64,000 nt of DNA from assembly GCF_030013595.1 (NCBI RefSeq), contig NZ_CP122768.1; one strand, given 5' to 3'. This stretch comes from Escherichia coli. Lineage in GTDB: Bacteria > Pseudomonadota > Gammaproteobacteria > Enterobacterales > Enterobacteriaceae. The notes beneath the pieces were generated by a model. That model was not told the DNA's origin and did no database searches. It worked only from the letters and a program-made list of their open reading frames with translations. The translations under genes and the position numbers were made by a program. Positions 1 to 53,367 of this stretch are shown here, piece by piece. The stretch's first letter is position 1. The number at the start of each line of letters is the position of its first letter.

Positions 1-115
1 TGTTCGGTTGCTGCAGTCATACACTCCTGCATTGTCCTGTGAACACTGTCTGCAATATCAACTGGCTCTCCGGAAACAAGAAAAACTGTCAGAACAAGCG
101 CAAATGCTGAATTCA
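1..115 (-). CDS. N-terminal part of a small secreted/membrane protein (YdfD-like by operon position); start at 115, continues beyond window start
   Basis: Reverse strand reads MNSAFALVLTVFLVSGEPVDIADSVHRTMQECMTAATE from an ATG overlapping the dicB stop (ATGA); identity inferred from remembered dicB-ydfD order. Confidence 0.45.
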
Positions 116-301
116 TTGTGTACATCCTTTTGGCATCAGACGTAAACGAGCCAGCATTGAAACAATGCATATTTTATTTAATAGCTCCCGTTCTTGTTTT
201 CTCTTGTTAATGGCATCTTCAGTAAATACAGGGTTACTGATAGTGACACCAATTTCAAAACAACCTTCAGACGTATTAACGTTTGGTAATAACGTTTTCA
301 T
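113..301 (-). CDS. dicB: Cell division inhibitor DicB (62 aa)
   Basis: Internal Met of the 113..406 ORF gives MKTLLPNVNTSEGCFEIGVTISNPVFTEDAINKRKQERELLNKICIVSMLARLRLMPKGCTQ, matching remembered DicB; lies downstream of DicF as expected. Confidence 0.8.
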   Translation of the reverse strand: MKTLLPNVNTSEGCFEIGVTISNPVFTEDAINKRKQERELLNKICIVSMLARLRLMPKGCTQ

Positions 302-470
302 TATCGCGTCCTCAACAATGAATTTTGTGATGCAGTGCCTGGTGCCTCCAGGTGACGTTAACCAGTTAACAATTAACGCCGGATACAGAGAATCCACCCA
401 TAACACTGTTTTTGGTTTTAACTGTTCCGCGTGCGCTTAGCCGCATTCACCGCATCACAAAATTCACTTT

Positions 471-528
471 AAAAACGGCGGCAGAGCAGTCACGGAGTAA
501 AACTGATACCGCCAAACGTCACCAGAAA
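471..528 (-). ncRNA. dicF: DicF small regulatory RNA
   Basis: Reverse complement of 471..528 is UUUCUGGUGACGUUUGGCGGUAUCAGUUUUACUCCGUGACUGCUCUGCCGCCGUUUUU, matching remembered DicF; GC stem plus U-run at 3' end; located between early ORFs and dicB. Confidence 0.75.
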
Positions 529-803
529 ATTGATAACAGAGGGCGTTGCAGCGGGGTTGTCACTTAAGCGTATGGTCAACCTGACAACTCGGTGTCCTCA
601 ACGGGGAAGGAATAACCCCGCCATACTTACCGCCGCGCCATTTCGCGGGTTGCCACAACCGGAAGCGCACGGTCGAATTAAATTTAACGACACCGTACAG
701 TGAGACGAACTTCGCCGTGCGCTTTCGTGTTGTGTGCCTGCTTTTAACCACGTCAGGCGAGGTGGTATCCTTCTTATCCCGAATAACCAAGAAGGAAATC
801 TAT

Positions 804-1004
804 ATGACTAAAGAAGAATTTGTCTCTTATATTTTTGATAAAAAGGTTGAAATGTATGCCGCTACTTACGGGTCCTGTAATCCTCTGAATAAACCAGAGG
901 GGAAAGATGATTTCGACAAAATTTACCGCTTCTTGGAGGACCGCTATATCAAAAGGTTAGAGGACGCAGGGATCAAATCCCCAGTGAAGTCACCATTGTC
1001 CTGA
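804..1004 (+). CDS. Hypothetical 66-aa protein, opposite orientation to the dicB operon
   Basis: ATG at 804 preceded by AAGGAA Shine-Dalgarno; product MTKEEFVSYIFDKKVEMYAATYGSCNPLNKPEGKDDFDKIYRFLEDRYIKRLEDAGIKSPVKSPLS; no homolog recognised. Confidence 0.3.
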   Translation: MTKEEFVSYIFDKKVEMYAATYGSCNPLNKPEGKDDFDKIYRFLEDRYIKRLEDAGIKSPVKSPLS

Positions 1005-1338
1005 GAACTTGCAGGACGTCATGATCGTAACTTCCATCCAAACCGCGACGGCAAATTGCTTCTCGTATTACCGGAAGCAGTTCGCTGGAAATCTCGGTGC
1101 ATATTTCACCTGATAATACGCCTGGCTCAAGTGAGAATATTGGTGAACTTACGGTCTTGGTCTCGACAGTTTCAGAGTCAGTGCCAACATTATAAAGCTC
1201 AACGAAAGCGGTCTTGATTTTCCGGGCCAGATCTTTTGCTGGCTCGCTTGCAATATCTTTCCCGATTTCTCGCAGCACAGAATGCAATGTATGAGCTGCT
1301 GTTTTCTGTACATCAGACGGTAAATCTTTAAATTCCAT
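973..1338 (-). CDS. Hypothetical prophage early-operon protein (YdfB/YdfC position)
   Basis: 125-aa ORF (MEFKDLPSDVQK... from second Met) in the leftward operon downstream of the ydfA-like ORF; start 1338 or 1350. Confidence 0.5.
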   Translation of the reverse strand: MEFKDLPSDVQKTAAHTLHSVLREIGKDIASEPAKDLARKIKTAFVELYNVGTDSETVETKTVSSPIFSLEPGVLSGEICTEISSELLPVIREAICRRGLDGSYDHDVLQVLRTMVTSLGI

Positions 1339-1349
1339 CGTCAGCCTCA

Positions 1350-1502
1350 TCAGTCAGTGTTTCTGGCTAACCAGCAACGCGCGCCAGATTCGGTTTTAAA
1401 CGTTTTGCTTTTGGTATACGTCATCGCGGTGAACGTGCCGTCCTGGTTGGGGAACACGCCACATACCAGAGATTCGCTGTTGCCAAGATCGATAGTATCC
1501 AT
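1350..1502 (-). CDS. Small protein YdfA-like (50 aa)
   Basis: Internal Met of ORF 1350..1556 gives MDTIDLGNSESLVCGVFPNQDGTFTAMTYTKSKTFKTESGARCWLARNTD; first gene of the operon leftward of dicA. Confidence 0.5.
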   Translation of the reverse strand: MDTIDLGNSESLVCGVFPNQDGTFTAMTYTKSKTFKTESGARCWLARNTD

Positions 1503-1582
1503 GCTGACCTCATTTCCCCTTAACGCCGGGGTAGCGGAACTGTTTGCTGAGAACACCGTGCGGTGTCTTGATGGAAAGTAAT

Positions 1583-1633
1583 TTAGAATAACCTAACATA
1601 AGAGGCAAGTGTTTTTTGTTAGATTAGTCTAAC
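1583..1633. promoter_or_regulatory. Two palindromic operator-like sites (TTAG-N6-CTAA; GTTAGA-N4-TCTAAC) in the dicB-operon promoter region
   Basis: TTAGAATAACCTAA at 1583..1596 and GTTAGATTAGTCTAAC at 1618..1633, between dicA stop and the leftward operon start. Confidence 0.5.
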
Positions 1634-1670
1634 AAAAAGAGTGGGCGCAACTAATCACTTGAAAAGAATG

Positions 1671-2078
1671 TTATTTTATTGATTTATTTTTACGCGCTTT
1701 AAGCATTTCTTCGAAGAGTTTGTTGAAGTTTTCTACTCTTGCGCGCATTTCAGACAGCAAGGCTTCCTGCTCGGAAGATGGAAGAGCATCGAATAATTCG
1801 ATCAATTCTTTGTGGTTGGGAGTTAGCTCTGTTTCCACATGAAGTTCTTGTGCCGGCACTGGTGCCTTGTCTTCGTCACCAAACATTAGCCATGTAGGTG
1901 AGCACTTCAGAGCATCCGCTAAAGCAAACAATCGTTTTCCGACTGGCTGGGTTTCGTCTCTTTCCCATTGTGAAATTGTGACGTGAGCAACCCCAGCGAG
2001 GCGCGCAGCTTCTCGTTGTGTTAAGCGTAATTCTTTTCGTCGCGCCAGAACTCGCTGGCCTAGGGTTCTTGTATCCAT
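1671..2078 (-). CDS. dicA: Repressor DicA (HTH, XRE family, 135 aa)
   Basis: Full-length similarity to remembered DicA (..TISQWERDETQPVGKRLFALADALKCSPTWLMFGDEDK.. ..MRARVENFNKLFEEMLKARKN..); divergent from a Cro-like gene. Confidence 0.85.
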   Translation of the reverse strand: MDTRTLGQRVLARRKELRLTQREAARLAGVAHVTISQWERDETQPVGKRLFALADALKCSPTWLMFGDEDKAPVPAQELHVETELTPNHKELIELFDALPSSEQEALLSEMRARVENFNKLFEEMLKARKNKSIK

Positions 2079-2080
2079 AG

Positions 2081-2144
2081 TTAGGTAATTCTAATTTTTC
2101 TTGACTTAGGTATCCCGCGCACAATAATGTTAGAAAAGTCTAAC
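2081..2144. promoter_or_regulatory. Divergent dicA/dicC promoter-operator region
   Basis: Palindromes TTAGGTAATTCTAA (2081..2094) and GTTAGAAAAGTCTAAC (2129..2144); candidate rightward promoter TTGACT (2101..2106), 17-bp spacer, ATAATG (2124..2129). Confidence 0.55.
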
Positions 2145-2158
2145 AATAGGAGGCTTTG

Positions 2159-2386
2159 ATGCTTAAAGCTGACGCAATTACTTTTTTTGGCAGCAAAACA
2201 AAGCTTGCCAATGCCGCAGGAGTGAGACTGGCAAGTGTTGCTGCTTGGGGGATACTGGTTCCTGAAGGTCGCGCGATGCGTCTACAGGAGGCATCTGGCG
2301 GGGAGCTTCAGTATGATCCCAAAGTTTATGACGAATATCGTAAGACGAAGCGGGCGGGGCGGTTGAACAATGAAAATCACTCCTGA
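2159..2386 (+). CDS. dicC: Cro-like regulator DicC
   Basis: ATG 6 nt after AGGAGG; 75 aa (MLKADAITFFGSKTKLANAAGVRLASVAAWG...); divergent from dicA. Confidence 0.7.
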   Translation: MLKADAITFFGSKTKLANAAGVRLASVAAWGILVPEGRAMRLQEASGGELQYDPKVYDEYRKTKRAGRLNNENHS

Positions 2387-2891
2387 ACAGGCTCGTGAGG
2401 CTCTGGATGCCTGGATATGTCGACCAGGAATGACACAGGAGCAGGCGACGATATTAATCACTGAAGCATTCTGGGCTTTGAAAGAGCGCCCGAACATCGA
2501 TGTTCAGCGTGTCACAGATGAAGGTGGCGCGGTTGATCAGCGAGCGCTTGGCGTTAATCGAGTGAAGATATTCGAACGCTGGAAGGCTATCGACACTAGG
2601 GATAAGCGTGAAAAGTTCACGGCGCTAGTGCCTGCAATTATGGAGGCTATCCGGATTAATGATTTCAGGTTGTATCGTGAAATTAGTGACGGAAAAAGCA
2701 TCACGTACATGATCGCCGGGTTAAACAAAGAATATGGCGATGTGGTGGAGTCCGGACTGCTTTTTGCTGATCCTGCCGTAGTGGATCGTGAAACTGACGA
2801 ACTTATAGAAAAAGCAATTGCTTTCAAACTTGCGTATCGACTGCAATACCAACAAAAAGCTGGATGGAATTATGAGCCTTCTTTTTGCTGA
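2370..2891 (+). CDS. YdaT-like prophage regulatory protein (CII-position protein)
   Basis: 173-aa ORF directly after the cro-like gene, overlapping its stop; resembles the YdaT family from memory. Confidence 0.55.
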   Translation: MKITPEQAREALDAWICRPGMTQEQATILITEAFWALKERPNIDVQRVTDEGGAVDQRALGVNRVKIFERWKAIDTRDKREKFTALVPAIMEAIRINDFRLYREISDGKSITYMIAGLNKEYGDVVESGLLFADPAVVDRETDELIEKAIAFKLAYRLQYQQKAGWNYEPSFC

Positions 2892-3837
2892 ACGCCCACT
2901 GGTTATAAACACACAGCTTGCGATGAAGATTGGCTTAAATGAAGCCATTGTGTTGCAGCAGTTGCATTACTGGTTGAGAGATACCAATTCCGGCATGGAA
3001 TGTGATGGTGTTCGCTGGATTTACAACACAACGGAACAATGGCTGGAACAGTTCCCATTCTGGCCAGAGTCAACGTTAAAGCGCGCGTTTGCAAGTCTGA
3101 AAACGCTGGGGCTTTTGCGTTGTGAAAAGCTCAATAAATCAAAGCGCGATATGACCAATTTCTACACGATCAACTATGGGAGCGAGCTTTTAGATGGTGG
3201 CAAATTGAACGAATCCATCGGTTCAAAATGCGCCGCTCCATCAGGTCAAAATGACACGATGGAAGAGGTCAAAATGAAACGCTCCATTGGTTCAAAACGA
3301 CCCAATGTCATCGGGTCAAAATGGCCTGATGATCTTACAGAGAATACAACAGAGATTACTACAGAGAATAAAAACACTTTTCGTCCGGAAGCTTCGCAAC
3401 CGGACCCGCAGACCGCTGAACAGGATTTTTTAACCCGGAACCCCGACGCGGTTGTGTTTAGTGCGAAAAAACGCCAGTGGGGTAGCAGGGAGGATTTGGC
3501 GTGTGCGCAGTGGATTTGGGGGCGGATCGTGAACCTTTACGAACAGGCTGCCAGCGACGATGGAGAGATCATGCGACCAAAAGAGCCTAACTGGACAGCC
3601 TGGGCCAATGACGTGCGCACAATGCGGATGCTGGATGGCAGAAGCCACAGACAAATTTGCGAAATGTTTGGTCGGGTACAGCGAGATCCATTCTGGGTAA
3701 AAAACATCATGAGCCCGTCAAAACTCCGCGAAAAATGGGACGAACTGGTCATCCGCTTGGGACGTTCACCTGTACAGCGTTGTGTGAATCATATTTCTGA
3801 ACCGGATACAGAAATTCCGCCTGGTTTCAGGGGATAA
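2872..3837 (+). CDS. Replication initiation protein, lambda O-like
   Basis: Position after cro/cII-like genes; contains iteron-like DNA repeats internally (translated as repeated IGSK motifs), as in lambda O/ori; start at MSLLFAERP. Confidence 0.65.
   Translation: MSLLFAERPLVINTQLAMKIGLNEAIVLQQLHYWLRDTNSGMECDGVRWIYNTTEQWLEQFPFWPESTLKRAFASLKTLGLLRCEKLNKSKRDMTNFYTINYGSELLDGGKLNESIGSKCAAPSGQNDTMEEVKMKRSIGSKRPNVIGSKWPDDLTENTTEITTENKNTFRPEASQPDPQTAEQDFLTRNPDAVVFSAKKRQWGSREDLACAQWIWGRIVNLYEQAASDDGEIMRPKEPNWTAWANDVRTMRMLDGRSHRQICEMFGRVQRDPFWVKNIMSPSKLREKWDELVIRLGRSPVQRCVNHISEPDTEIPPGFRG
3219..3324 (+). repeat. Putative replication origin iterons (about five copies of GGTCAAAATG-like repeat)
   Basis: cGGTTCAAAATG 3219..3230, GGTCAAAATG 3244..3253 and 3267..3276, GGTTCAAAACG 3289..3299, GGGTCAAAATGG 3314..3324, inside the O-like gene. 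Confidence 0.6.
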
Positions 3838-3877
3838 GTGTTGATTTCAGGTCATGAGGTAATTTTAAGGAGGACTT

Positions 3878-4273
3878 GTGGCAAAAGTTTTTACACAGGA
3901 AGAGCGGGAAAAAATTAAAGAGCAGGTGGTCGAACTTGTGCGCCAGAGCGGTCGCGAGACATTACGACAGTTGGAAGCTAAAACAGGTGCGACAAGATAT
4001 CTGATGAGCATTCTTGCCAGAGAGCTGGTTGCCAGTGGTTATGTATACAACTCCGGCTACGGGTTATTCCCGTCTGAACAGGCACGAAAGGACTGGCAAA
4101 ATGCCCGCAAAAAACTCTCTAGGGCGAAGGTGAAGAAACCCGCTGTGGTTGATCCGGACCTTATCTGGTCACTACCTGATGGAGAAATACGTCGCTACGA
4201 CAGTCGTCTAAACATAATCTGTCGCGAGTGCCGGAAGAGCGAAGTTATGCAGCGCATATTGTCGTTTTATTAG
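3878..4273 (+). CDS. Hypothetical 131-aa protein at the position where a helicase loader (P/DnaC) would be expected
   Basis: GTG start 4 nt after TAAGGAGG; no Walker motif seen; function unknown. Confidence 0.5.
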   Translation: MAKVFTQEEREKIKEQVVELVRQSGRETLRQLEAKTGATRYLMSILARELVASGYVYNSGYGLFPSEQARKDWQNARKKLSRAKVKKPAVVDPDLIWSLPDGEIRRYDSRLNIICRECRKSEVMQRILSFY

Positions 4274-6103: not shown

Positions 6104-6266
6104 CTTACATCCATCTCCATTAAGAAATCTTGCTATTGTTCTTATGGATCGTCTTTCTGACTGATTTCATATTGGCGAGGTAAAGGTAGTTAAGTAGAAT
6201 GGCTGCGGGTGCTTGAGGCTATCTGCCTCGGGCATGAACACCAAAGGCAGATAGAGAAAAGCCCCA

Positions 6267-8141
6267 GTTAACATTACGCGTCCTGCAAGACGCTTAACAT
6301 TAATCTGAGGCCAATTTCATGCTAGACACATGTAGGTTAGCCTCTTACGTGCCGAAAGGCAAGGAGAAGCAGGCTAGTGTTAACACCAAGCTGTAATGTC
6401 CCCTTTGAACCATTCTAAAATGTCCCCAGACAATTCTCTGGGGGATTTTTCATGATCAAAGAGACTGTTACGATGAGTCATAAGGAACTCCACCGACTTC
6501 AGATTATTCAGGAGTCAATTAATCGACATATTACTCAGGAACAAGCTGCGGCACGCATTGGCATTTCTATTCGGCAGGTTAAACGTCTGGTGCAACGGTA
6601 TAGAAATGAAGGGCCTTCTGGTCTGGTTTCCCACCGACGTGGAAAGCGTCCTAATAATTCCTTTTCTACTGAATTCAGAGCAACAGTAATTTCACTCCTC
6701 AAAGGCCGTTACGCTGATTTTGGACCTACGTTTGCGTGCGAAAAATTGCGCGAGATACACGGTTTATCTTTATCCGTTGAAACTCTCAGAAAGTGGATGA
6801 TAGAAGAGGGGTTATGGCGTGAACGCCGTCGTAAAATTGCCCGTATATATCAACGCCGCATGCGACGACCATCTTACGGTGAACTGATCCAGATTGATGG
6901 CTCACCTCATGACTGGTTTGAAAATCGAGGCCCCAGATGTACACTGATCGTTTTCATTGATGATGCCACCAGTGCGTTGATGGCGTTGCGTTTTGTGCCT
7001 GCTGAAACAACCCGGGCTTACATGGAAACCCTCCGGGGTTACCTTAATGATCATGGCGTACCGCTCGCTCTCTACTCTGATAGACACAGTATATTCAGGG
7101 TAAATAACCCAGAGCGGGAAGGTGAGCTGACCCAGTTCACTCGTGCGATAAAGACACTGGGCATCGAGCCAATCCATGCCAACAGCCCGCAGGCAAAAGG
7201 GCGGGTAGAGCGCGCCAATCAGACACTACAGGACAGGCTGGTCAAAGAAATGCGGCTTCAGAATATCAGTGATATTGAAACAGCAAATGCATGGTTGCCG
7301 ACCTTTATTGAAGCCTATAACAACCGGTTCGCTACGTCGCCTCGTACTACTGATAATGCTCATCTTGATGAGCACCATTCTGAAGAGGAACTGGGTTATA
7401 TCTTCAGCCTACAGGCGAAGCGCGTTCTGTCTAAAAATCTCACTTTCCAGTACAAAAGCAGTGCGTTTCAGGTACGCAGTGAGGGCCGGGGATATCGACT
7501 TAGGCATTCGGTTGTTACTGTATGCGAGAACTTTGACGGTGAAATTAACGTTCTGTATGACGGGAAAGCGCTGGGCTGGGAAAAGTATGTTGATGGCCCG
7601 GAGCCTATACCACTGGATGATGAAAAGAGTGTCCATGAACGAGTGGATAATGCCCGTATTGATTTACGCTCAAAATACTATGTTAAACCTAAAGCTGACC
7701 ATCCCTGGCTTACGCGCCGAACGCAAAGTCATCAGCAAGTTAAGCCCCCGAAGTTACCTAAAAAGAAGCCTGATCCCGATAAAAAAGATTGAAACCAAGA
7801 TCGATTCGGTTGAGTGCATATCCATTCATAGGGTAGATTCTTAAGTCGCGTTTCTGGTGTTCATTTTCGGGTGGTTTGTTACTTGTTTTACCGGGGATAT
7901 GCCAGAAACGCGCTGAGTCAGTCTGGGCGGTGCGCGTAATGAGGCGTTATGGTAAATAGCCTATGCTAATGTCCGCTAAGAGCAAGAAGCGGAAGTTGGC
8001 AGTTTTGTGGACTGTCCCCACAAAAGTGACTACAGAAATAGTTGCAATTCATAATTGATCATGGGTTGTCAGTTAAACTCGTGGCGATTTAAATAGACTA
8101 ATTGGGAGTGCGTCCATTACTTATATCTTGTAATGTTAACT
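6267..8141. mobile_element. Insertion sequence (single-ORF DDE/rve transposase; IS481 or ISNCY-like); boundaries approximate
   Basis: 446-aa transposase ORF; 12-bp inverted match AGTTAACATTAC at 6267..6278 and 8130..8141 proposed as termini; no clear target-site duplication. Confidence 0.45.
6452..7792 (+). CDS. Transposase with N-terminal HTH and integrase-core (DDE) domain
   Basis: 446 aa; HTH (AARIGISIRQVKRLV) and rve-like core (..IQIDGSPHDWF.. ..LYSDRHSIF..); basic lysine-rich C-terminus. Confidence 0.85.
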   Translation: MIKETVTMSHKELHRLQIIQESINRHITQEQAAARIGISIRQVKRLVQRYRNEGPSGLVSHRRGKRPNNSFSTEFRATVISLLKGRYADFGPTFACEKLREIHGLSLSVETLRKWMIEEGLWRERRRKIARIYQRRMRRPSYGELIQIDGSPHDWFENRGPRCTLIVFIDDATSALMALRFVPAETTRAYMETLRGYLNDHGVPLALYSDRHSIFRVNNPEREGELTQFTRAIKTLGIEPIHANSPQAKGRVERANQTLQDRLVKEMRLQNISDIETANAWLPTFIEAYNNRFATSPRTTDNAHLDEHHSEEELGYIFSLQAKRVLSKNLTFQYKSSAFQVRSEGRGYRLRHSVVTVCENFDGEINVLYDGKALGWEKYVDGPEPIPLDDEKSVHERVDNARIDLRSKYYVKPKADHPWLTRRTQSHQQVKPPKLPKKKPDPDKKD

Positions 8142-13111: not shown

Positions 13112-13411
13112 AAAAATTCCTTAATACTGATAACTTGGCGCACTATACACACGTTCCTGAAGAAAGCTATAGTTTTTTGATGGGGTTGAAGATGGCTGGA
13201 TGTCTAAAATAAACATTGCTTCATATGTTCAACTATGCGTTAATGATTGCGTCGGTTTGAAGAACAGACGATATACGAAGTAGTTTACTAAAGCAGTTCT
13301 CATTTCAGGTGTTATTCACTTATTCCTTCTTTGAGTCTCTCCAATTAAGTACGAAGTCGTTTCTGTTATGCAAACCATTTATGCCGAAAGGCTCAAGTTA
13401 AGGAATGTAGA

Positions 13412-13627
13412 ATGTCAAATAAAATGACTGGTTTAGTAAAATGGTTTAACGCTGATAAAGGTTTCGGCTTTATTTCTCCTGTTGATGGTAGTAAAGATGT
13501 GTTTGTGCATTTTTCTGCGATTCAGAATGATAATTATCGAACCTTATTTGAAGGTCAAAAGGTTACCTTCTCTATAGAGAGTGGTGCTAAAGGTCCTGCA
13601 GCAGCAAATGTCATCATTACTGATTAA
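13412..13627 (+). CDS. cspB: Cold shock protein CspB
   Basis: 71 aa [38 protein letters not shown]..., RNP motifs. Confidence 0.9.
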
Positions 13628-13917
13628 AATTCATCGCTCGTCTGTATACGATAACGAAGAAGGCTGATGCCTGAGTAGAGATACGGACAGAGTAGTGAAT
13701 ATTGGATTTCTTTAATAAAAATTAAGGAGGTCCAATACATGAAACAATGGTCAGCATATTTGGCAAAATCTTAATCAGGAAAAGTATGCTAACCATTGTG
13801 GTGAAGTGCAGGTTTGCTGCATGAATAGTTTTACAGCAGAAGCTAACTGCTGGCATGGCAAAACAAAGTGCGTAAGTGGATGACTCCCACAAAAAGCACC
13901 ACAATCTCAAACCCGCT

Positions 13918-15935: not shown

Positions 15936-16296
15936 GGTAATATTAAATCGGAACATTTACATCGCGGAATGTAAAATTTAAATAAAAAGGACTCTTCCAT
16001 GAGCCAAAATTCCTGAAATCTTAAGGGTAAGATAAAAGGTCTTAATCAGAATGACACGTTTTATTAATAAATAAAGCTATTCTTTCATTGCTGTGTTTTT
16101 CTTTACAAAAGTAATCCTTGCTATGGGTGGTTAATCATGCGTTAATGGTGTTCTGGTTTGTTACAAATTTATCTGAAGCAGTCATTGTTATAATTTTATT
16201 ATTTGTACCTCTTGAGATTTCCTTGTTGGTTTTTCTCTCTGATATTTTTTTCGGACCATTCTGCCCAAGGGCTAATTTCTTCAAAAGGTAATAATT

Positions 16297-16509
16297 ATGT
16301 CTAACAAAATGACTGGTTTAGTAAAATGGTTTAACCCTGAAAAAGGTTTTGGTTTCATCACGCCGAAAGATGGCAGCAAAGATGTGTTTGTCCATTTCTC
16401 AGCAATTCAGAGCAACGATTTCAAAACATTAACTGAGAATCAGGAAGTTGAATTTGGTATTGAGAACGGACCTAAAGGTCCTGCCGCTGTTCATGTAGTG
16501 GCGCTTTGA
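16297..16509 (+). CDS. cspI: Cold shock protein CspI
   Basis: 70 aa [43 protein letters not shown]... Confidence 0.9.
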
Positions 16510-16780
16510 GGTAGACAATATTACAAACCATATTCACTTTAGATGCCCGTGTTGTCATGGTTCCCAGTATAGAACATCATCTTTTGATGTTTCTGACATG
16601 AATCCTTTCGGGGCAAAATGTATCTTTTGTAAATCAATGATGATTACATTTGATAATATTTCACAATACTTAAATGCCAGCCGTCTGTCGTTGGATTTAA
16701 AAAAGTGAAAATGAAGGCTCCTTCGGGAGCTTTTTGGCTTGGTGTCTATTCGATGGATACTCACATACTACGGTAACATC

Positions 16781-41459: not shown

Positions 41460-42034
41460 TGGCATTCAGAATGAGTGAACAACCACGGACCATAAAAATT
41501 TATAATCTGCTGGCCGGAACTAATGAATTTATTGGTGAAGGTGATGCATATATTCCGCCTCATACAGGTCTGCCAGCAAACAGTACCGATATTGCACCGC
41601 CAGATATTCCGGCTGGCTTCGTGGCTGTTTTCAACAGTGATGAGTCATCGTGGCATCTCGTTGAAGATCATCGGGGTAAAATGGTTTATGACGTGGCTTC
41701 CGGCGACGCGTTATTTATTTCTGAACTCGGTCCGTTACCGGAAAATGTTACCTGGTTATCGCCGGAAGGGGAGTTTCAGAAGTGGAACGGTACAGTCTGG
41801 GTGAAGGATACGGAAGCAGAAAAACTGTTCCGGATCCGGGAGGCGGAAGAAACAAAAAACAGCCTGATGCAGGTAGCCAGTGAGCATATAGCGCCACTTC
41901 AGGATGCTGTAGATCTGGAAATCGCAACGGAGGAAGAAACCTCATTGCTGGAAGCCTGGAAAAAGTATCGGGTGTTGCTGAACCGTGTTGATACATCAAC
42001 TGCACAGGATATTGAATGGCCAGCACTGCCGTAG
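41459..42034 (+). CDS. tfa: Tail fibre assembly protein Tfa
   Basis: 191 aa [42 protein letters not shown]...; start overlaps stf stop. Confidence 0.85.
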
Positions 42035-52927: not shown

Positions 52928-53367
52928 GCTCCGTTTAACATTCATTGAGAAAACTGATGCTACTGTGTCAACGATCCGTTATCAGTGCAGGAAAATGCCT
53001 GTTAGCGTAAAAGCAAAACACAAATCTATCCATGCAAGCATTCACCGCCGGTTTACTGGCGGTTTTTTTTCGCCGTCATAAAAATCAGGCCCCTTGTACA
53101 CAGTTGTAACAAGGGGCCGGTTAGGTGAGGGATTATCTCCGTTCATTAGTCATCCCATTTGTGGCTGAAATACGCGGCCAGAAAACCAGAAAATAAAATT
53201 ATTCCCAGTACGGCCATAAAAACATTCATATTACCCAGCATTATTTGCCTCCGTTTATGGTGTGGTGTGTTTCCTCGCTTACCTTAATTTTCATCTCAAT
53301 GAGAAAGATATTAGCAGAGGTAACCTAAACGAAGGCTGAATTAAATTTTTATTGTGTTCGACTTAAA

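What the first reader, a model, noticed from the sequence alone, without database searches (positions are those of the whole stretch)
804..1004. Small ORF with a strong Shine-Dalgarno sequence, encoded opposite to the dicB operon
AAGGAA then ATG at 804 gives a 66-aa hydrophilic protein. It lies in the roughly 440-nt gap between the early ORF ending at 973 and DicF, and its 3' end overlaps that early gene. If expressed, it would be transcribed convergently against the dicB operon; it could be a moron or an antisense regulatory element.
Basis: seen in the sequence. Interest (0 to 1): 0.35.

Follow-up and report, generated by a model that had tools for sequence, protein, structure and literature searches.

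The report
Small prophage gene in swap slot
The 66-codon reading frame is a real, conserved small prophage gene of unknown function, and it is one of at least a dozen unrelated small genes that different E. coli prophages carry at this same spot behind one shared control sequence.

Summary
AAGGAA (792-797) and ATG 804 open a 66-aa hydrophilic ORF (804-1004, +) that lies between DicF (476-527, -) and a convergent early gene (973-1350, -), overlapping it by 32 nt.

An ORF this long is not unusual by chance (17% of shuffles), but the conservation shows it is a gene:
- dN/dS is 0.08-0.30.
- Indels are in frame.
- The Shine-Dalgarno is kept in relatives down to 41% identity.

RefSeq already annotates it as a hypothetical protein (WP_000159335.1; REL606 ECB_RS08150; phrog_34441). 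No function, fold match or paper was found.

New here: the ~68 nt upstream (736-803) are a conserved cassette with a promoter-like extended -10 and two stem-loops. One stem-loop pairs with the Shine-Dalgarno.
- In 142 of 151 instances the cassette is followed about 30 nt later by a small ORF.
- These ORFs fall into 12 unrelated families, including ymfI of K-12 prophage e14.
- The cassette occurs in about a third of complete E. coli genomes.

Most likely this is a moron-like cargo gene transcribed on its own, antisense to the dicB operon. Expression, the transcription start and the protein's function remain untested.

The parts
804..1004 (+). Gene B: 66-aa small protein (phrog_34441; RefSeq WP_000159335.1 family), stop codon included
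   Evidence: ORF read. Annotated in RefSeq genomes. PHROG match E 1.7e-49. dN/dS 0.08-0.30. AF2 model of two helices, residues 3-21 and 31-54, pLDDT 76.6.
789..797 (+). Shine-Dalgarno region AAGAAGGAA (core AAGGA 792-796), 6-7 nt before the ATG
   Evidence: Read. A Shine-Dalgarno is kept at the same distance in all six divergent homologues, with different sequences (AAGGAA, GGGAGG, GGAGG).
736..803 (+). Conserved 5' cassette shared by unrelated cargo genes
   Evidence: Alignments A6 and A8. Conservation starts sharply at GCCTG, with 42 different upstream contexts. In 142 of 151 instances a small ORF from one of 12 families follows. A 60-nt variant matches 1736 of 5426 E. coli genomes.
736..758 (+). 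Inverted repeat 1: GCCTG (736-740), 13 nt, CAGGC (754-758). It encloses the -35-like hexamer.
   Evidence: Read. It is almost invariant, with one compensatory variant, GCCGGG/CCCGGC, in L037. Its role was not tested.
744..771 (+). Promoter-like sequence: TTAACC (744-749), 16-nt spacer, TG (763-764), TATCCT (766-771). The predicted start is near 778.
   Evidence: Inference from the sequence and from the limits of conservation. The consensus scan, which does not score extended -10 sites, did not list it. Not shown experimentally.
768..796 (+). Hairpin 2: TCCTTCTT (768-775) pairs with AAGAAGGA (789-796), which is the Shine-Dalgarno.
   Evidence: RNAfold gives -9.8 kcal/mol. Compensatory changes occur in at least 7 lineages. 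Own-partner duplexes average -10.3 against -7.6 kcal/mol for swapped partners, with 0 of 5000 permutations reaching this.
973..1350 (-). Gene A: convergent early-left gene (121 aa from ATG 1338, 125 aa from 1350). A conserved N-terminal domain is joined to a C-terminal domain that travels with B.
   Evidence: ORF. phrog_33007 E 1.3e-82, and the N-terminal 50 aa match several PHROGs. Homologues with other C-termini exist. Found in 400 E. coli genomes against 397 for B.
973..1004 (.). 32-nt 3' overlap of the convergent genes A and B
   Evidence: Overlaps of 32-56 nt are kept in L007, L008, L012 and L013.
528..772 (-). Leader of the DicF precursor. This block is conserved in most E. coli, and its far end is the cassette.
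   Evidence: Megablast finds 4317 of 5426 genomes matching, most of them only 530-745 or 530-772. RNase III and RNase E processing of this leader in K-12 is described in PMC10448788.
476..527 (-). DicF sRNA (context)
   Evidence: Rfam RF00039, 72.5 bits.

Best explanation
Gene B (804-1004, +) is a genuine protein-coding accessory gene of a Qin/mEp460-type lambdoid prophage. It occupies a cargo slot at the far end of the first early-left genes. There, a conserved cassette of about 68 nt (736-803) is followed in different prophages by any of at least 12 unrelated small genes, so B is one interchangeable cargo.

Shown: the reading frame is under purifying selection, the cassette is conserved, the cargo families are diverse, and the stem-loop that pairs with the Shine-Dalgarno is kept by compensatory changes.

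Inferred:
- The cassette holds its own sigma-70 extended -10 promoter (TTAACC, 16 nt, TGgTATCCT). B would therefore be transcribed independently of the DicA-repressed dicB operon, and so also in the lysogen.
- The transcript would start near 778, giving an unstructured leader with a free Shine-Dalgarno. Longer plus-strand transcripts that read through the cassette would have the Shine-Dalgarno sequestered.
- No terminator follows, and B converges on gene A. B transcription and early-left transcription would therefore interfere with each other, excludon-style.

The product is a soluble two-helix hairpin of 7.7 kDa that most likely acts by binding another protein. Its target and biological role (host modulation, exclusion or defence, or control of a phage early function) are unknown.
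For: Coding:
- dN/dS is 0.08-0.30 in the B frame and about 1 or more in most other frames (at or below 0.6 in a few close pairs). The exception is the closed antisense frame that shares wobble positions.
- Variable columns by codon position are 16/15/37, p = 0.001.
- dS equals that of the neighbouring gene, while dN/dS is lower than in that gene's C-terminal half.
- The frame is intact in all full-length homologues, and indels are in frame in L012 and L013.
- A Shine-Dalgarno is kept in all of them.
- The gene is annotated by PGAP and present in PHROGs.

Slot and cassette:
- The 20-nt core occurs in at least 120 viral contigs.
- In 142 of 151 instances a Shine-Dalgarno and ATG follow about 30 nt downstream, opening ORFs of 12 unrelated families.
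- Conservation begins at GCCTG after 42 different upstream contexts.
- The cassette precedes ECs_2282 in O157 and ymfI in K-12 e14.
- A 60-nt variant matches 1736 of 5426 E. coli genomes.

Other support:
- Hairpin covariation is documented.
- Moron-like traits: presence/absence polymorphism and GC of 40.3% against 45.8% locally.
- Indirect expression evidence from the homologous slot: ymfI-ymfJ is listed as a convergent excludon from K-12 RNA-seq (PMC12288877).
- Fold: a two-helix hairpin.
Against: - No transcript, transcription start, ribosome-profiling or peptide evidence for B itself could be reached.
- The promoter is only a sequence inference: 4/6 and 4/6 hexamer matches plus TG. The consensus scan did not list it.
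- The 5' arm of the covarying hairpin overlaps that -10 element. The predicted mRNA would therefore lack the arm, leaving the selected structure without a shown role. If the true start lies upstream, the Shine-Dalgarno would be sequestered instead.
- No terminator was found.
- There is no family, fold or defence-system match that hints at a function.
- The gene family is very narrow: 1 hit in 100,044 species-representative genomes.
Confidence: 0.6

Rival explanations
1. B and the C-terminal domain of the convergent protein A form a two-component module. B would be made constitutively from the opposite strand and would bind, neutralise or modulate the A C-terminal domain. A is made only when the early-left operon is derepressed. 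The logic resembles the opposite-strand immunity genes of pore-forming colicins, or an antidote to an early toxic function.
For: - B and A co-occur almost one to one in E. coli (397 against 400 genomes).
- The roughly 45-aa C-terminal domain of A accompanies B in three otherwise different contexts: the window type, L012 with a different N-terminus, and Cedecea L004, where it stands alone between cro and cII.
- The N-terminal domain of A occurs elsewhere with other C-termini and with other convergent partners.
Against: - The physical overlap alone would keep the two together.
- In L013, B (41-45% identity) is paired with a convergent gene that is not detectably homologous to the A C-terminal domain (hhalign probability 0.2%).
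- An AF2 model of A-linker-B with a paired alignment is poor (pLDDT 44.7, pTM 0.28), although a 5-sequence alignment makes this weak evidence.
- Most other cargos of the slot face unrelated genes.
Confidence: 0.2
2. The main function is at the RNA level. Transcription from the cassette into the early-left operon silences leaky expression of A/ydfA and the toxic dicF-dicB genes, by transcriptional interference and RNase III cleavage of the duplex. The encoded peptide would be secondary.
For: - The layout is convergent with a conserved 3' overlap and no terminator.
- The homologous ymfI-ymfJ pair is listed as an excludon.
- The dicB operon products are toxic and under layered control (PMC10448788).
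Against: - An RNA-only function does not explain purifying selection on the amino-acid sequence, in-frame indels or a conserved Shine-Dalgarno and start.
- It also does not explain why 12 different protein families are maintained in the slot.
- Synonymous sites are not unusually constrained.
Confidence: 0.12
3. The ORF is a chance frame that annotation pipelines propagate. Its conservation would reflect constraints on the sense transcript (the untranslated spacer of the DicF precursor).
For: - ORFs of this length arise in 17% of shuffles.
- The region lies inside a processed precursor RNA.
- There is no expression evidence.
Against: - Substitutions concentrate at third positions of the B frame.
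- The gene occurs in Cedecea and L013 in prophages without DicF.
- Most dicB operons lack this stretch altogether.
Confidence: 0.04

Closest known systems
Morons of lambdoid phages (independently transcribed extra genes inserted between genes of a phage operon; concept of Hendrix, Juhala and colleagues, cited from my own knowledge)
   Same: B is a small extra gene present in some but not all otherwise homologous early-left operons. Its GC content is lower, it lies on the opposite strand, and a promoter-like sequence sits directly upstream.
   Different: There is no terminator of its own, and it overlaps the neighbouring gene. Its upstream control region is not private: it is a cassette shared with at least 11 unrelated genes at the same position.
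PeSL cassettes (promoter-early stem-loop) of T4-like phages (PMC2839356, PMC4122927)
   Same: Both are short conserved motifs that combine a promoter with a stem-loop. Both border small, unrelated genes of mostly unknown function and mark a point of genetic exchange.
   Different: This element is in temperate lambdoid prophages, not T4-like phages. Only one copy lies on the 5' side of a single slot. One stem-loop pairs with the ribosome-binding site rather than acting as a terminator. Promoter activity and recombination at the motif were not tested here.
Excludons, in particular ymfI-ymfJ of K-12 prophage e14 (PMC12288877)
   Same: ymfI lies behind the same cassette. It is convergent with, and overlaps, the first early-left gene next to the prophage repressor, exactly as B does with A.
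   Different: YmfI and YmfJ are unrelated in sequence to B and A. Overlapping transcripts are documented for e14 only, not for B.
Opposite-strand immunity genes of pore-forming colicins, and OOP antisense RNA against cII in lambda (from my own knowledge)
   Same: Each is a constitutively expressed small gene or RNA that converges on a repressor-controlled gene and overlaps its 3' end.
   Different: No toxin activity is known for A. B is soluble and not a membrane protein. No interaction was predicted.
phrog_34441 / RefSeq WP_000159335.1
   Same: B matches phrog_34441 over its full length (E 1.7e-49). The window protein differs from WP_000159335.1 by one residue (K14 for T14).
   Different: These entries carry no function. 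They say only that the ORF has been called before.

Membership tests
phrog_34441 | Full-length match to the family profile | tested here: met
   E 1.7e-49, residues 1-66 on profile positions 1-66.
Moron | Present or absent between otherwise homologous phage operons | tested here: met
   4317 genomes carry the DicF leader but only 385-397 carry B. E597 and K-12 have other sequence there.
Moron | Own promoter | tested here: inconclusive
   A conserved TTAACC-16-TGgTATCCT lies at 744-771. It was not listed by the consensus scan, and no transcription-start data are available.
Moron | Own factor-independent terminator | tested here: not met
   No terminator-like sites in 400-1700 on either strand. 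The gene instead runs into gene A.
Moron | Base composition differs from the surrounding phage genes | tested here: met
   GC is 40.3% against 45.8% (1-3000) and 48.7% (whole window).
Moron | Expressed from the repressed prophage | not testable with these tools
   No RNA-seq or Ribo-seq data could be reached. REL606, BL21 and ATCC 8739 carry the gene.
PeSL-like mobile regulatory cassette | Short conserved motif containing stem-loop(s) next to a promoter consensus | tested here: met
   Alignments A6 and A8, sharp conservation limits and hairpin covariation. Promoter activity was not tested.
PeSL-like mobile regulatory cassette | Borders unrelated, exchangeable small ORFs | tested here: met
   12 unrelated cargo families in 142 instances.
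PeSL-like mobile regulatory cassette | Motif copies on both sides of the exchanged segment, serving as recombination points | tested here: not met
   The motif lies only on the 5' side of the cargo. The window holds a single copy. The other boundary lies inside or next to the convergent gene.
Excludon | Convergent genes whose transcripts overlap | tested here: inconclusive
   The genes overlap by 32 nt and no terminator separates them. Overlapping transcripts are documented only for the homologous slot ymfI-ymfJ.
Type I toxin-antitoxin | Small hydrophobic membrane toxin | tested here: not met
   GRAVY -0.73, no hydrophobic segment, and two amphipathic helices.
ECs_2282 / Lar-type zinc-ribbon proteins (occupy the same slot in O157) | Match to NF047912 and paired CxxC motifs | tested here: not met
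   No NCBIfam hit for B. B has a single Cys. The Pfam Zn_ribbon_16 hit has E 0.088, below the cut-off.
Known anti-phage defence systems (PADLOC) | Match to a PADLOC model | tested here: not met
   No hit for B or A.
Cognate partner of the A C-terminal domain (toxin-antidote-like pair) | Obligate co-occurrence and a predicted complex | tested here: inconclusive
   Co-occurrence is 397 against 400 genomes, and the pair is found in L012 and Cedecea. However, L013 has a non-homologous partner and the fusion model has pTM 0.28.

The most novel reading that the evidence does not exclude
Lambdoid prophages of enterobacteria carry a mobile regulatory cassette of about 70-85 nt. It marks a hypervariable slot next to the immunity region, in which unrelated small genes (B, ymfI, ECs_2282, a BssS-like protein, a 3-TM membrane protein and others) are exchanged.

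The cassette's -10 region doubles as an anti-Shine-Dalgarno arm. Only transcripts started at the cassette promoter would then be translated, while read-through transcripts (for example late transcripts of the circular phage) would be translationally silent. On this reading the cargos would form a pool of lysogen-expressed host-modulating, exclusion or counter-defence proteins.
Probability: 0.3. Interest if true: 0.65.

Novelty: new variant of a known kind. Interest (0 to 1): 0.45.

Why it matters
The ORF itself is an already annotated hypothetical protein, so calling it a gene is not new. The useful part is its context.

The same short control cassette precedes at least 12 unrelated small genes of unknown function. 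It occurs in about a third of complete E. coli genomes, including the laboratory strains K-12 (ymfI in e14), REL606/BL21 (this gene) and O157 (ECs_2282). That gives these orphan genes a common handle:
- one promoter and leader to test,
- one position to search for further cargos,
- easy genetics in standard strains.

If the cargos are expressed in lysogens, this is a compact hotspot for prophage accessory functions beside the immunity region. The arrangement also bears on how the toxic dicF-dicB operon is kept silent.

Tried and rejected
- **Family and structure searches for B all came back empty.** No hits above cut-off in Pfam, NCBIfam or PADLOC. No PDB sequence hit. No Foldseek match in PDB or BFVD with E <= 0.001. 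afdb50 was not available.
- **Remote homologues.** An HMM search of 1.84 billion representatives added only two true relatives, P0020 and P0022. A repetitive 1401-aa protein and a WD40 protein look like chance or compositional matches. The scan of species-representative genomes gave one locus.
- **sRNA-17 of E. coli K1.** This is a 193-nt sRNA in an mEp460-like prophage (PMC7719688). I suspected it was the same locus, but the published sequence differs and is absent from the window.
- **AF2 of an A-linker-B fusion.** The model has low confidence and gives no support for a complex.
- **The 106-aa plus-strand ORF in E597.** I first set it aside as a shadow of a 205-aa minus ORF (phrog_35040). 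I later reinstated it as a probable cargo, because it sits behind the cassette with a Shine-Dalgarno and ATG, and related ORFs recur in 20 instances.
- **An 'empty slot with terminator'.** L053, L137 and L138 looked at first like proof of plus-strand transcription. I rejected this: these loci and L108 lack the rest of the cassette and are probably chance matches to the 20-nt pattern.
- **Promoter upstream of the cassette.** None is conserved across 42 upstream contexts.
- **Literature.** Searches for the accession, locus tag and PHROG id found nothing. Nothing turned up for ECs_2282 either.

Full report
**Setting.** Window 1-2900 is the immunity and early-left region of a Qin/mEp460-type lambdoid prophage.
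- On the minus strand lie dicB (113-301), DicF (476-527; Rfam RF00039, 72.5 bits), a 121/125-aa gene here called A (973-1350), a DUF1391/YdfA gene (1350-1556) and a DicA-like repressor (1671-2078).
- On the plus strand lie a DicC/Cro-like gene (2156-2386) and a YdaT gene.
- The finding, here called B, is the plus-strand ORF 804-1004.

**Observation.**
- AAGGAA is at 792-797, a 6-nt spacer follows, and ATG is at 804. The ORF is 66 codons.
- The gap between DicF and the stop of A is 445 nt, and the 3' overlap with A is 32 nt.
- The protein is hydrophilic: GRAVY -0.73, pI 6.2.
- The ORF alone is not remarkable. 17% of shuffles of 528-1004 give an ATG ORF of this length, and several other ORFs of 57-76 aa lie in the same gap.

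**Is it a gene?** Yes, with high confidence.
- RefSeq annotates it as a hypothetical protein (WP_000159335.1). Examples are strain 720632 and REL606 (ECB_RS08150). It is also annotated in the functional temperate phage mEp460_ev081. It is the whole of phrog_34441 (E 1.7e-49).
- It occurs in 397 of 5426 complete E. coli genomes, including REL606, BL21 derivatives and ATCC 8739. The DicF leader next to it occurs in 4317.
- Divergent homologues exist with identities of 92, 91, 88, 86, 71 (Cedecea), 55 and 41-45%. All are 65-73 aa, intact, and have indels in whole codons.
- Pairwise dN/dS is 0.08-0.30. Most other frames give about 1 or more (a few close pairs fall to 0.4-0.6). The antisense frame that shares wobble positions also scores low, but it is closed by stops.
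- Variable alignment columns fall 16/15/37 on codon positions 1/2/3, p = 0.001.
- dS equals that of gene A (0.25-0.5), so no extra RNA-level constraint is visible. dN/dS is lower than in A's C-terminal half, which is 0.24-0.60.
- A Shine-Dalgarno at the right distance is kept in all lineages, although its sequence changes.

**What the protein looks like.**
- AlphaFold2 with a 7-sequence alignment gives two helices (3-21 and 31-54) joined by a variable loop, with a short tail that is constrained by the overlap with A. pLDDT is 76.6.
- Nothing informative matches it in Pfam, NCBIfam, PADLOC, PDB sequences, PDB folds or viral folds.
- All database names are 'hypothetical', and no paper mentions it.
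- The family is very narrow. There are 12 hits among 1.84 billion representatives, of which two are new true relatives. Only one locus turned up among 100,044 species-representative genomes.

**Relation to gene A.**
- A has a conserved N-terminal domain of about 50 aa. That domain also occurs with quite different C-termini in Enterobacter, Serratia and metagenomic prophages.
- The C-terminal domain seen in the window (LPxIREAIxRRGLDGxYDH...TSLG) accompanies B in three settings. These are E. coli-type prophages, L012 (with another N-terminus) and Cedecea, where the pair sits between cro and cII. In E. coli, A and B co-occur in 400 and 397 genomes. This suggested a two-gene module.
- Three results argue against an obligate pair. 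In L013, B faces a gene with no detectable similarity to that domain. An AF2 model of A-linker-B is poor (pLDDT 44.7, pTM 0.28). The overlap alone would link the two genes physically.
- I keep this as a rival explanation at about 0.2.

**The unexpected part: a shared cassette and a cargo slot.**
- The other N-domain proteins each have a different small gene converging on their 3' end: 76, 81, 72 and at least 83 aa. Two of these belong to phrog_21180 and phrog_28250, and none resembles B.
- Upstream of B (window, L007, L008, L012) and of two of those unrelated genes lies the same element.
- I scanned IMG/VR for its 20-nt core, TCAGGCNNGGTGRTATYCTT (window 753-772). It hit at least 120 contigs.
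- Across all loci held, 142 of 151 instances have a Shine-Dalgarno and ATG about 30 nt downstream. These open ORFs of 50-148 aa in 12 unrelated families:
  - phrog_3311: 44 instances
  - B: 32 instances
  - a 105-aa three-TM protein: 20 instances
  - phrog_4753: 10 instances
  - an ECs_2282-like zinc ribbon: 9 instances
  - phrog_10348, 5286, 28250 and 21180, an 84-aa family, another zinc ribbon and a BssS-family protein
- Four of the nine instances without an ORF lack the rest of the element and look like chance matches.
- Conservation starts abruptly at GCCTG after 42 different upstream contexts and runs to the start codon.
- The cassette also precedes ECs_2282 in O157:H7 and ymfI in the e14 prophage of K-12. 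There, ymfI converges on and overlaps ymfJ, next to the repressor ymfK. YmfI and YmfJ are unrelated to B and A.
- A 60-nt variant matches 1736 of 5426 E. coli genomes, in up to five places each.
- In K-12 Qin the cassette is degraded and no cargo follows.

**Anatomy of the cassette in the window.**
- Inverted repeat 1 is GCCTG (736-740), 13 nt, CAGGC (754-758). It encloses a -35-like TTAACC (744-749).
- Sixteen nt further on comes TGgTATCCT (763-771), an extended -10 form with the key A and T in place.
- Hairpin 2 pairs TCCTTCTT (768-775) with AAGAAGGA (789-796). The second arm is the Shine-Dalgarno.
- Hairpin 2 is clearly selected. The arms change together in at least seven lineages: TCCTTTTA/TAAAAGGA, ATCCTTAAAA/TTTTAAGGAT, TCCTTTTAAGT/ACTTGAAAGGA, TCCTTG/CAAGGA, TCCTCTGAG/CTCGAGAGGA, TTCTTGG/CCAAGAA and TGCTGG/CCAGCA.
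- Own-partner duplexes are more stable than swapped ones, -10.3 against -7.6 kcal/mol, with 0 of 5000 permutations reaching this. Shared ancestry inflates that test, but the number of independent arm variants does not depend on it.

**How it most likely works, and what remains open.**
- The only promoter-like sequence that is conserved lies inside the cassette, and nothing upstream is conserved. I therefore infer that the cargo, B included, is transcribed from TTAACC-16-TGgTATCCT with a start near 778. This would be independent of the DicA-controlled promoter, which drives the opposite strand.
- Such an mRNA has an open leader (-0.3 kcal/mol). An RNA that includes 761-806 folds the Shine-Dalgarno into a stem of -9.8 kcal/mol.
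- One reading is that the stem silences translation of read-through transcripts. Another is that the real start lies upstream and the stem regulates translation. A third is that the stem acts in the sense early-left RNA, where the same arms can pair. G-U pairs favour the plus strand in two or three lineages and the minus strand in one. This is unresolved.
- No terminator follows B. Its transcription would therefore run into A, ydfA and the early-left promoter region.
- The homologous e14 pair ymfI-ymfJ is listed among the convergent excludons of K-12 derived from RNA-seq (PMC12288877). In an SOS time course, ymfJ rises far more than ymfI: LFC 4.8 against 2.0 (PMC11002266). This is indirect support for transcription of the slot and for mutual interference, not evidence for B itself.
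- Work on the K-12 dicBF operon found no further sense-strand promoters and describes RNase III and RNase E processing of the DicF leader. It did not examine the antisense strand (PMC10448788).

**Comparison with known systems.**
- B behaves like a moron: it shows presence/absence polymorphism, lower GC, the opposite strand and its own promoter-like signal. It lacks a terminator, and its control region is shared rather than private.
- The closest described analogue of the cassette is the PeSL motif of T4-like phages. That motif is a conserved promoter plus stem-loop bordering exchangeable small ORFs (PMC2839356, PMC4122927). Here the host phages are temperate lambdoids, the motif is single and lies only on the 5' side, and one stem involves the ribosome-binding site.
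- B is not a type I toxin (it is hydrophilic), not a zinc ribbon like the O157 cargo, and not a known defence protein.

**Verdict.**
- The interpretation as a moron-like gene transcribed against the dicB operon is supported by conservation and context, but expression is unproven.
- The gene is already annotated and its function is unknown.
- The added value is the conserved cassette and the multi-family cargo slot, which I could not find described. I rate this as a new variant of a known kind, with interest about 0.45.

Noticed in passing
L002 (E. coli E597) 2777-3097 (+): An unannotated 106-aa ORF with three predicted membrane segments sits behind the same cassette, with AAGGA and ATG in place. 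It overlaps a 205-aa minus-strand ORF (phrog_35040) that PGAP treats as a truncated ydfB pseudogene. Related 105-aa ORFs follow the cassette in 20 instances, so the plus-strand gene may be the real one.
   Followed up: partly
L162 (K-12 derivative, e14 prophage) 2501-2914: ymfI of e14 is preceded by the same cassette (TGgTATGCT, hairpin arms TGCTGG/CCAGCA). It converges on and overlaps ymfJ by 63 nt. K-12 data on ymfI could therefore settle where the cassette's transcript starts.
   Followed up: partly
L003 (O157:H7 TR01) 3083-3352: The gene for the ECs_2282-family zinc-binding protein is another cargo of the cassette (hairpin arms TCCTCTGAG/CTCGAGAGGA). A separate 54-aa plus-strand ORF, WP_001331716.1 (2673-2837), abuts the ydfC stop and spans the degraded Qin-type cassette. 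Its reality is doubtful.
   Followed up: partly
L004 (Cedecea) 3568-3912 (-): The homologue of A's C-terminal domain stands alone here (start MGKEQ...). It has lost its stop, so the open frame runs antisense through all of B. Gene callers chose B. The substitution pattern does not support the extension.
   Followed up: partly
window 845-846 (codon 14 of B): The window has Lys14 (AAG) where nearly all relatives have Thr (ACG). This exact variant is on 62 contigs in the protein collection.
   Followed up: no
L034 and L035, around 3001-3051 and 1957-2007: In two viral contigs B is cut off after codon 16, probably by a rearrangement or insertion.
   Followed up: no
window 269-478 (-): A sub-threshold Rfam match to STnc100 (34.5 bits against a gathering score of 47, E 7.8e-5) covers the spacer between DicF and dicB.
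   Followed up: no
window 6207-6373 (+); 13251-13643 and 16152-16536 (+); 41802-42000 (+); 52939-53152 (+): Rfam gathering-level hits elsewhere in the window: sok antitoxin RNA, two cspA thermoregulator leaders, IS009 and STnc560.
   Followed up: no
window 1557-1670 and 2079-2155: Repeats of TTAGA...TCTAAC type (for example ttagattagtctaac and tgttagaaaagtctaaca) flank the DicA-like gene. They are probably the operators of the immunity switch. They are unrelated to the inverted repeat in the cassette.
   Followed up: no
P0008 (Logan assembly), homologue of B: This copy differs from the others only by S->F, P->L and R->C changes, all of them C->T at the DNA level. The source reads may come from deaminated or chemically converted DNA.
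   Followed up: no
P0021 (1401 aa, from the 1.84-billion-protein library): A repetitive, eukaryote-like protein matches the B profile in seven repeats (motif FDxLEERYLxRNEEAG). This is probably compositional or convergent.
   Followed up: no
L001 (strain 720632) 1550-2877: An IS600 insertion has split dicB into a truncated pseudogene beside an intact copy, next to the B locus.
   Followed up: no
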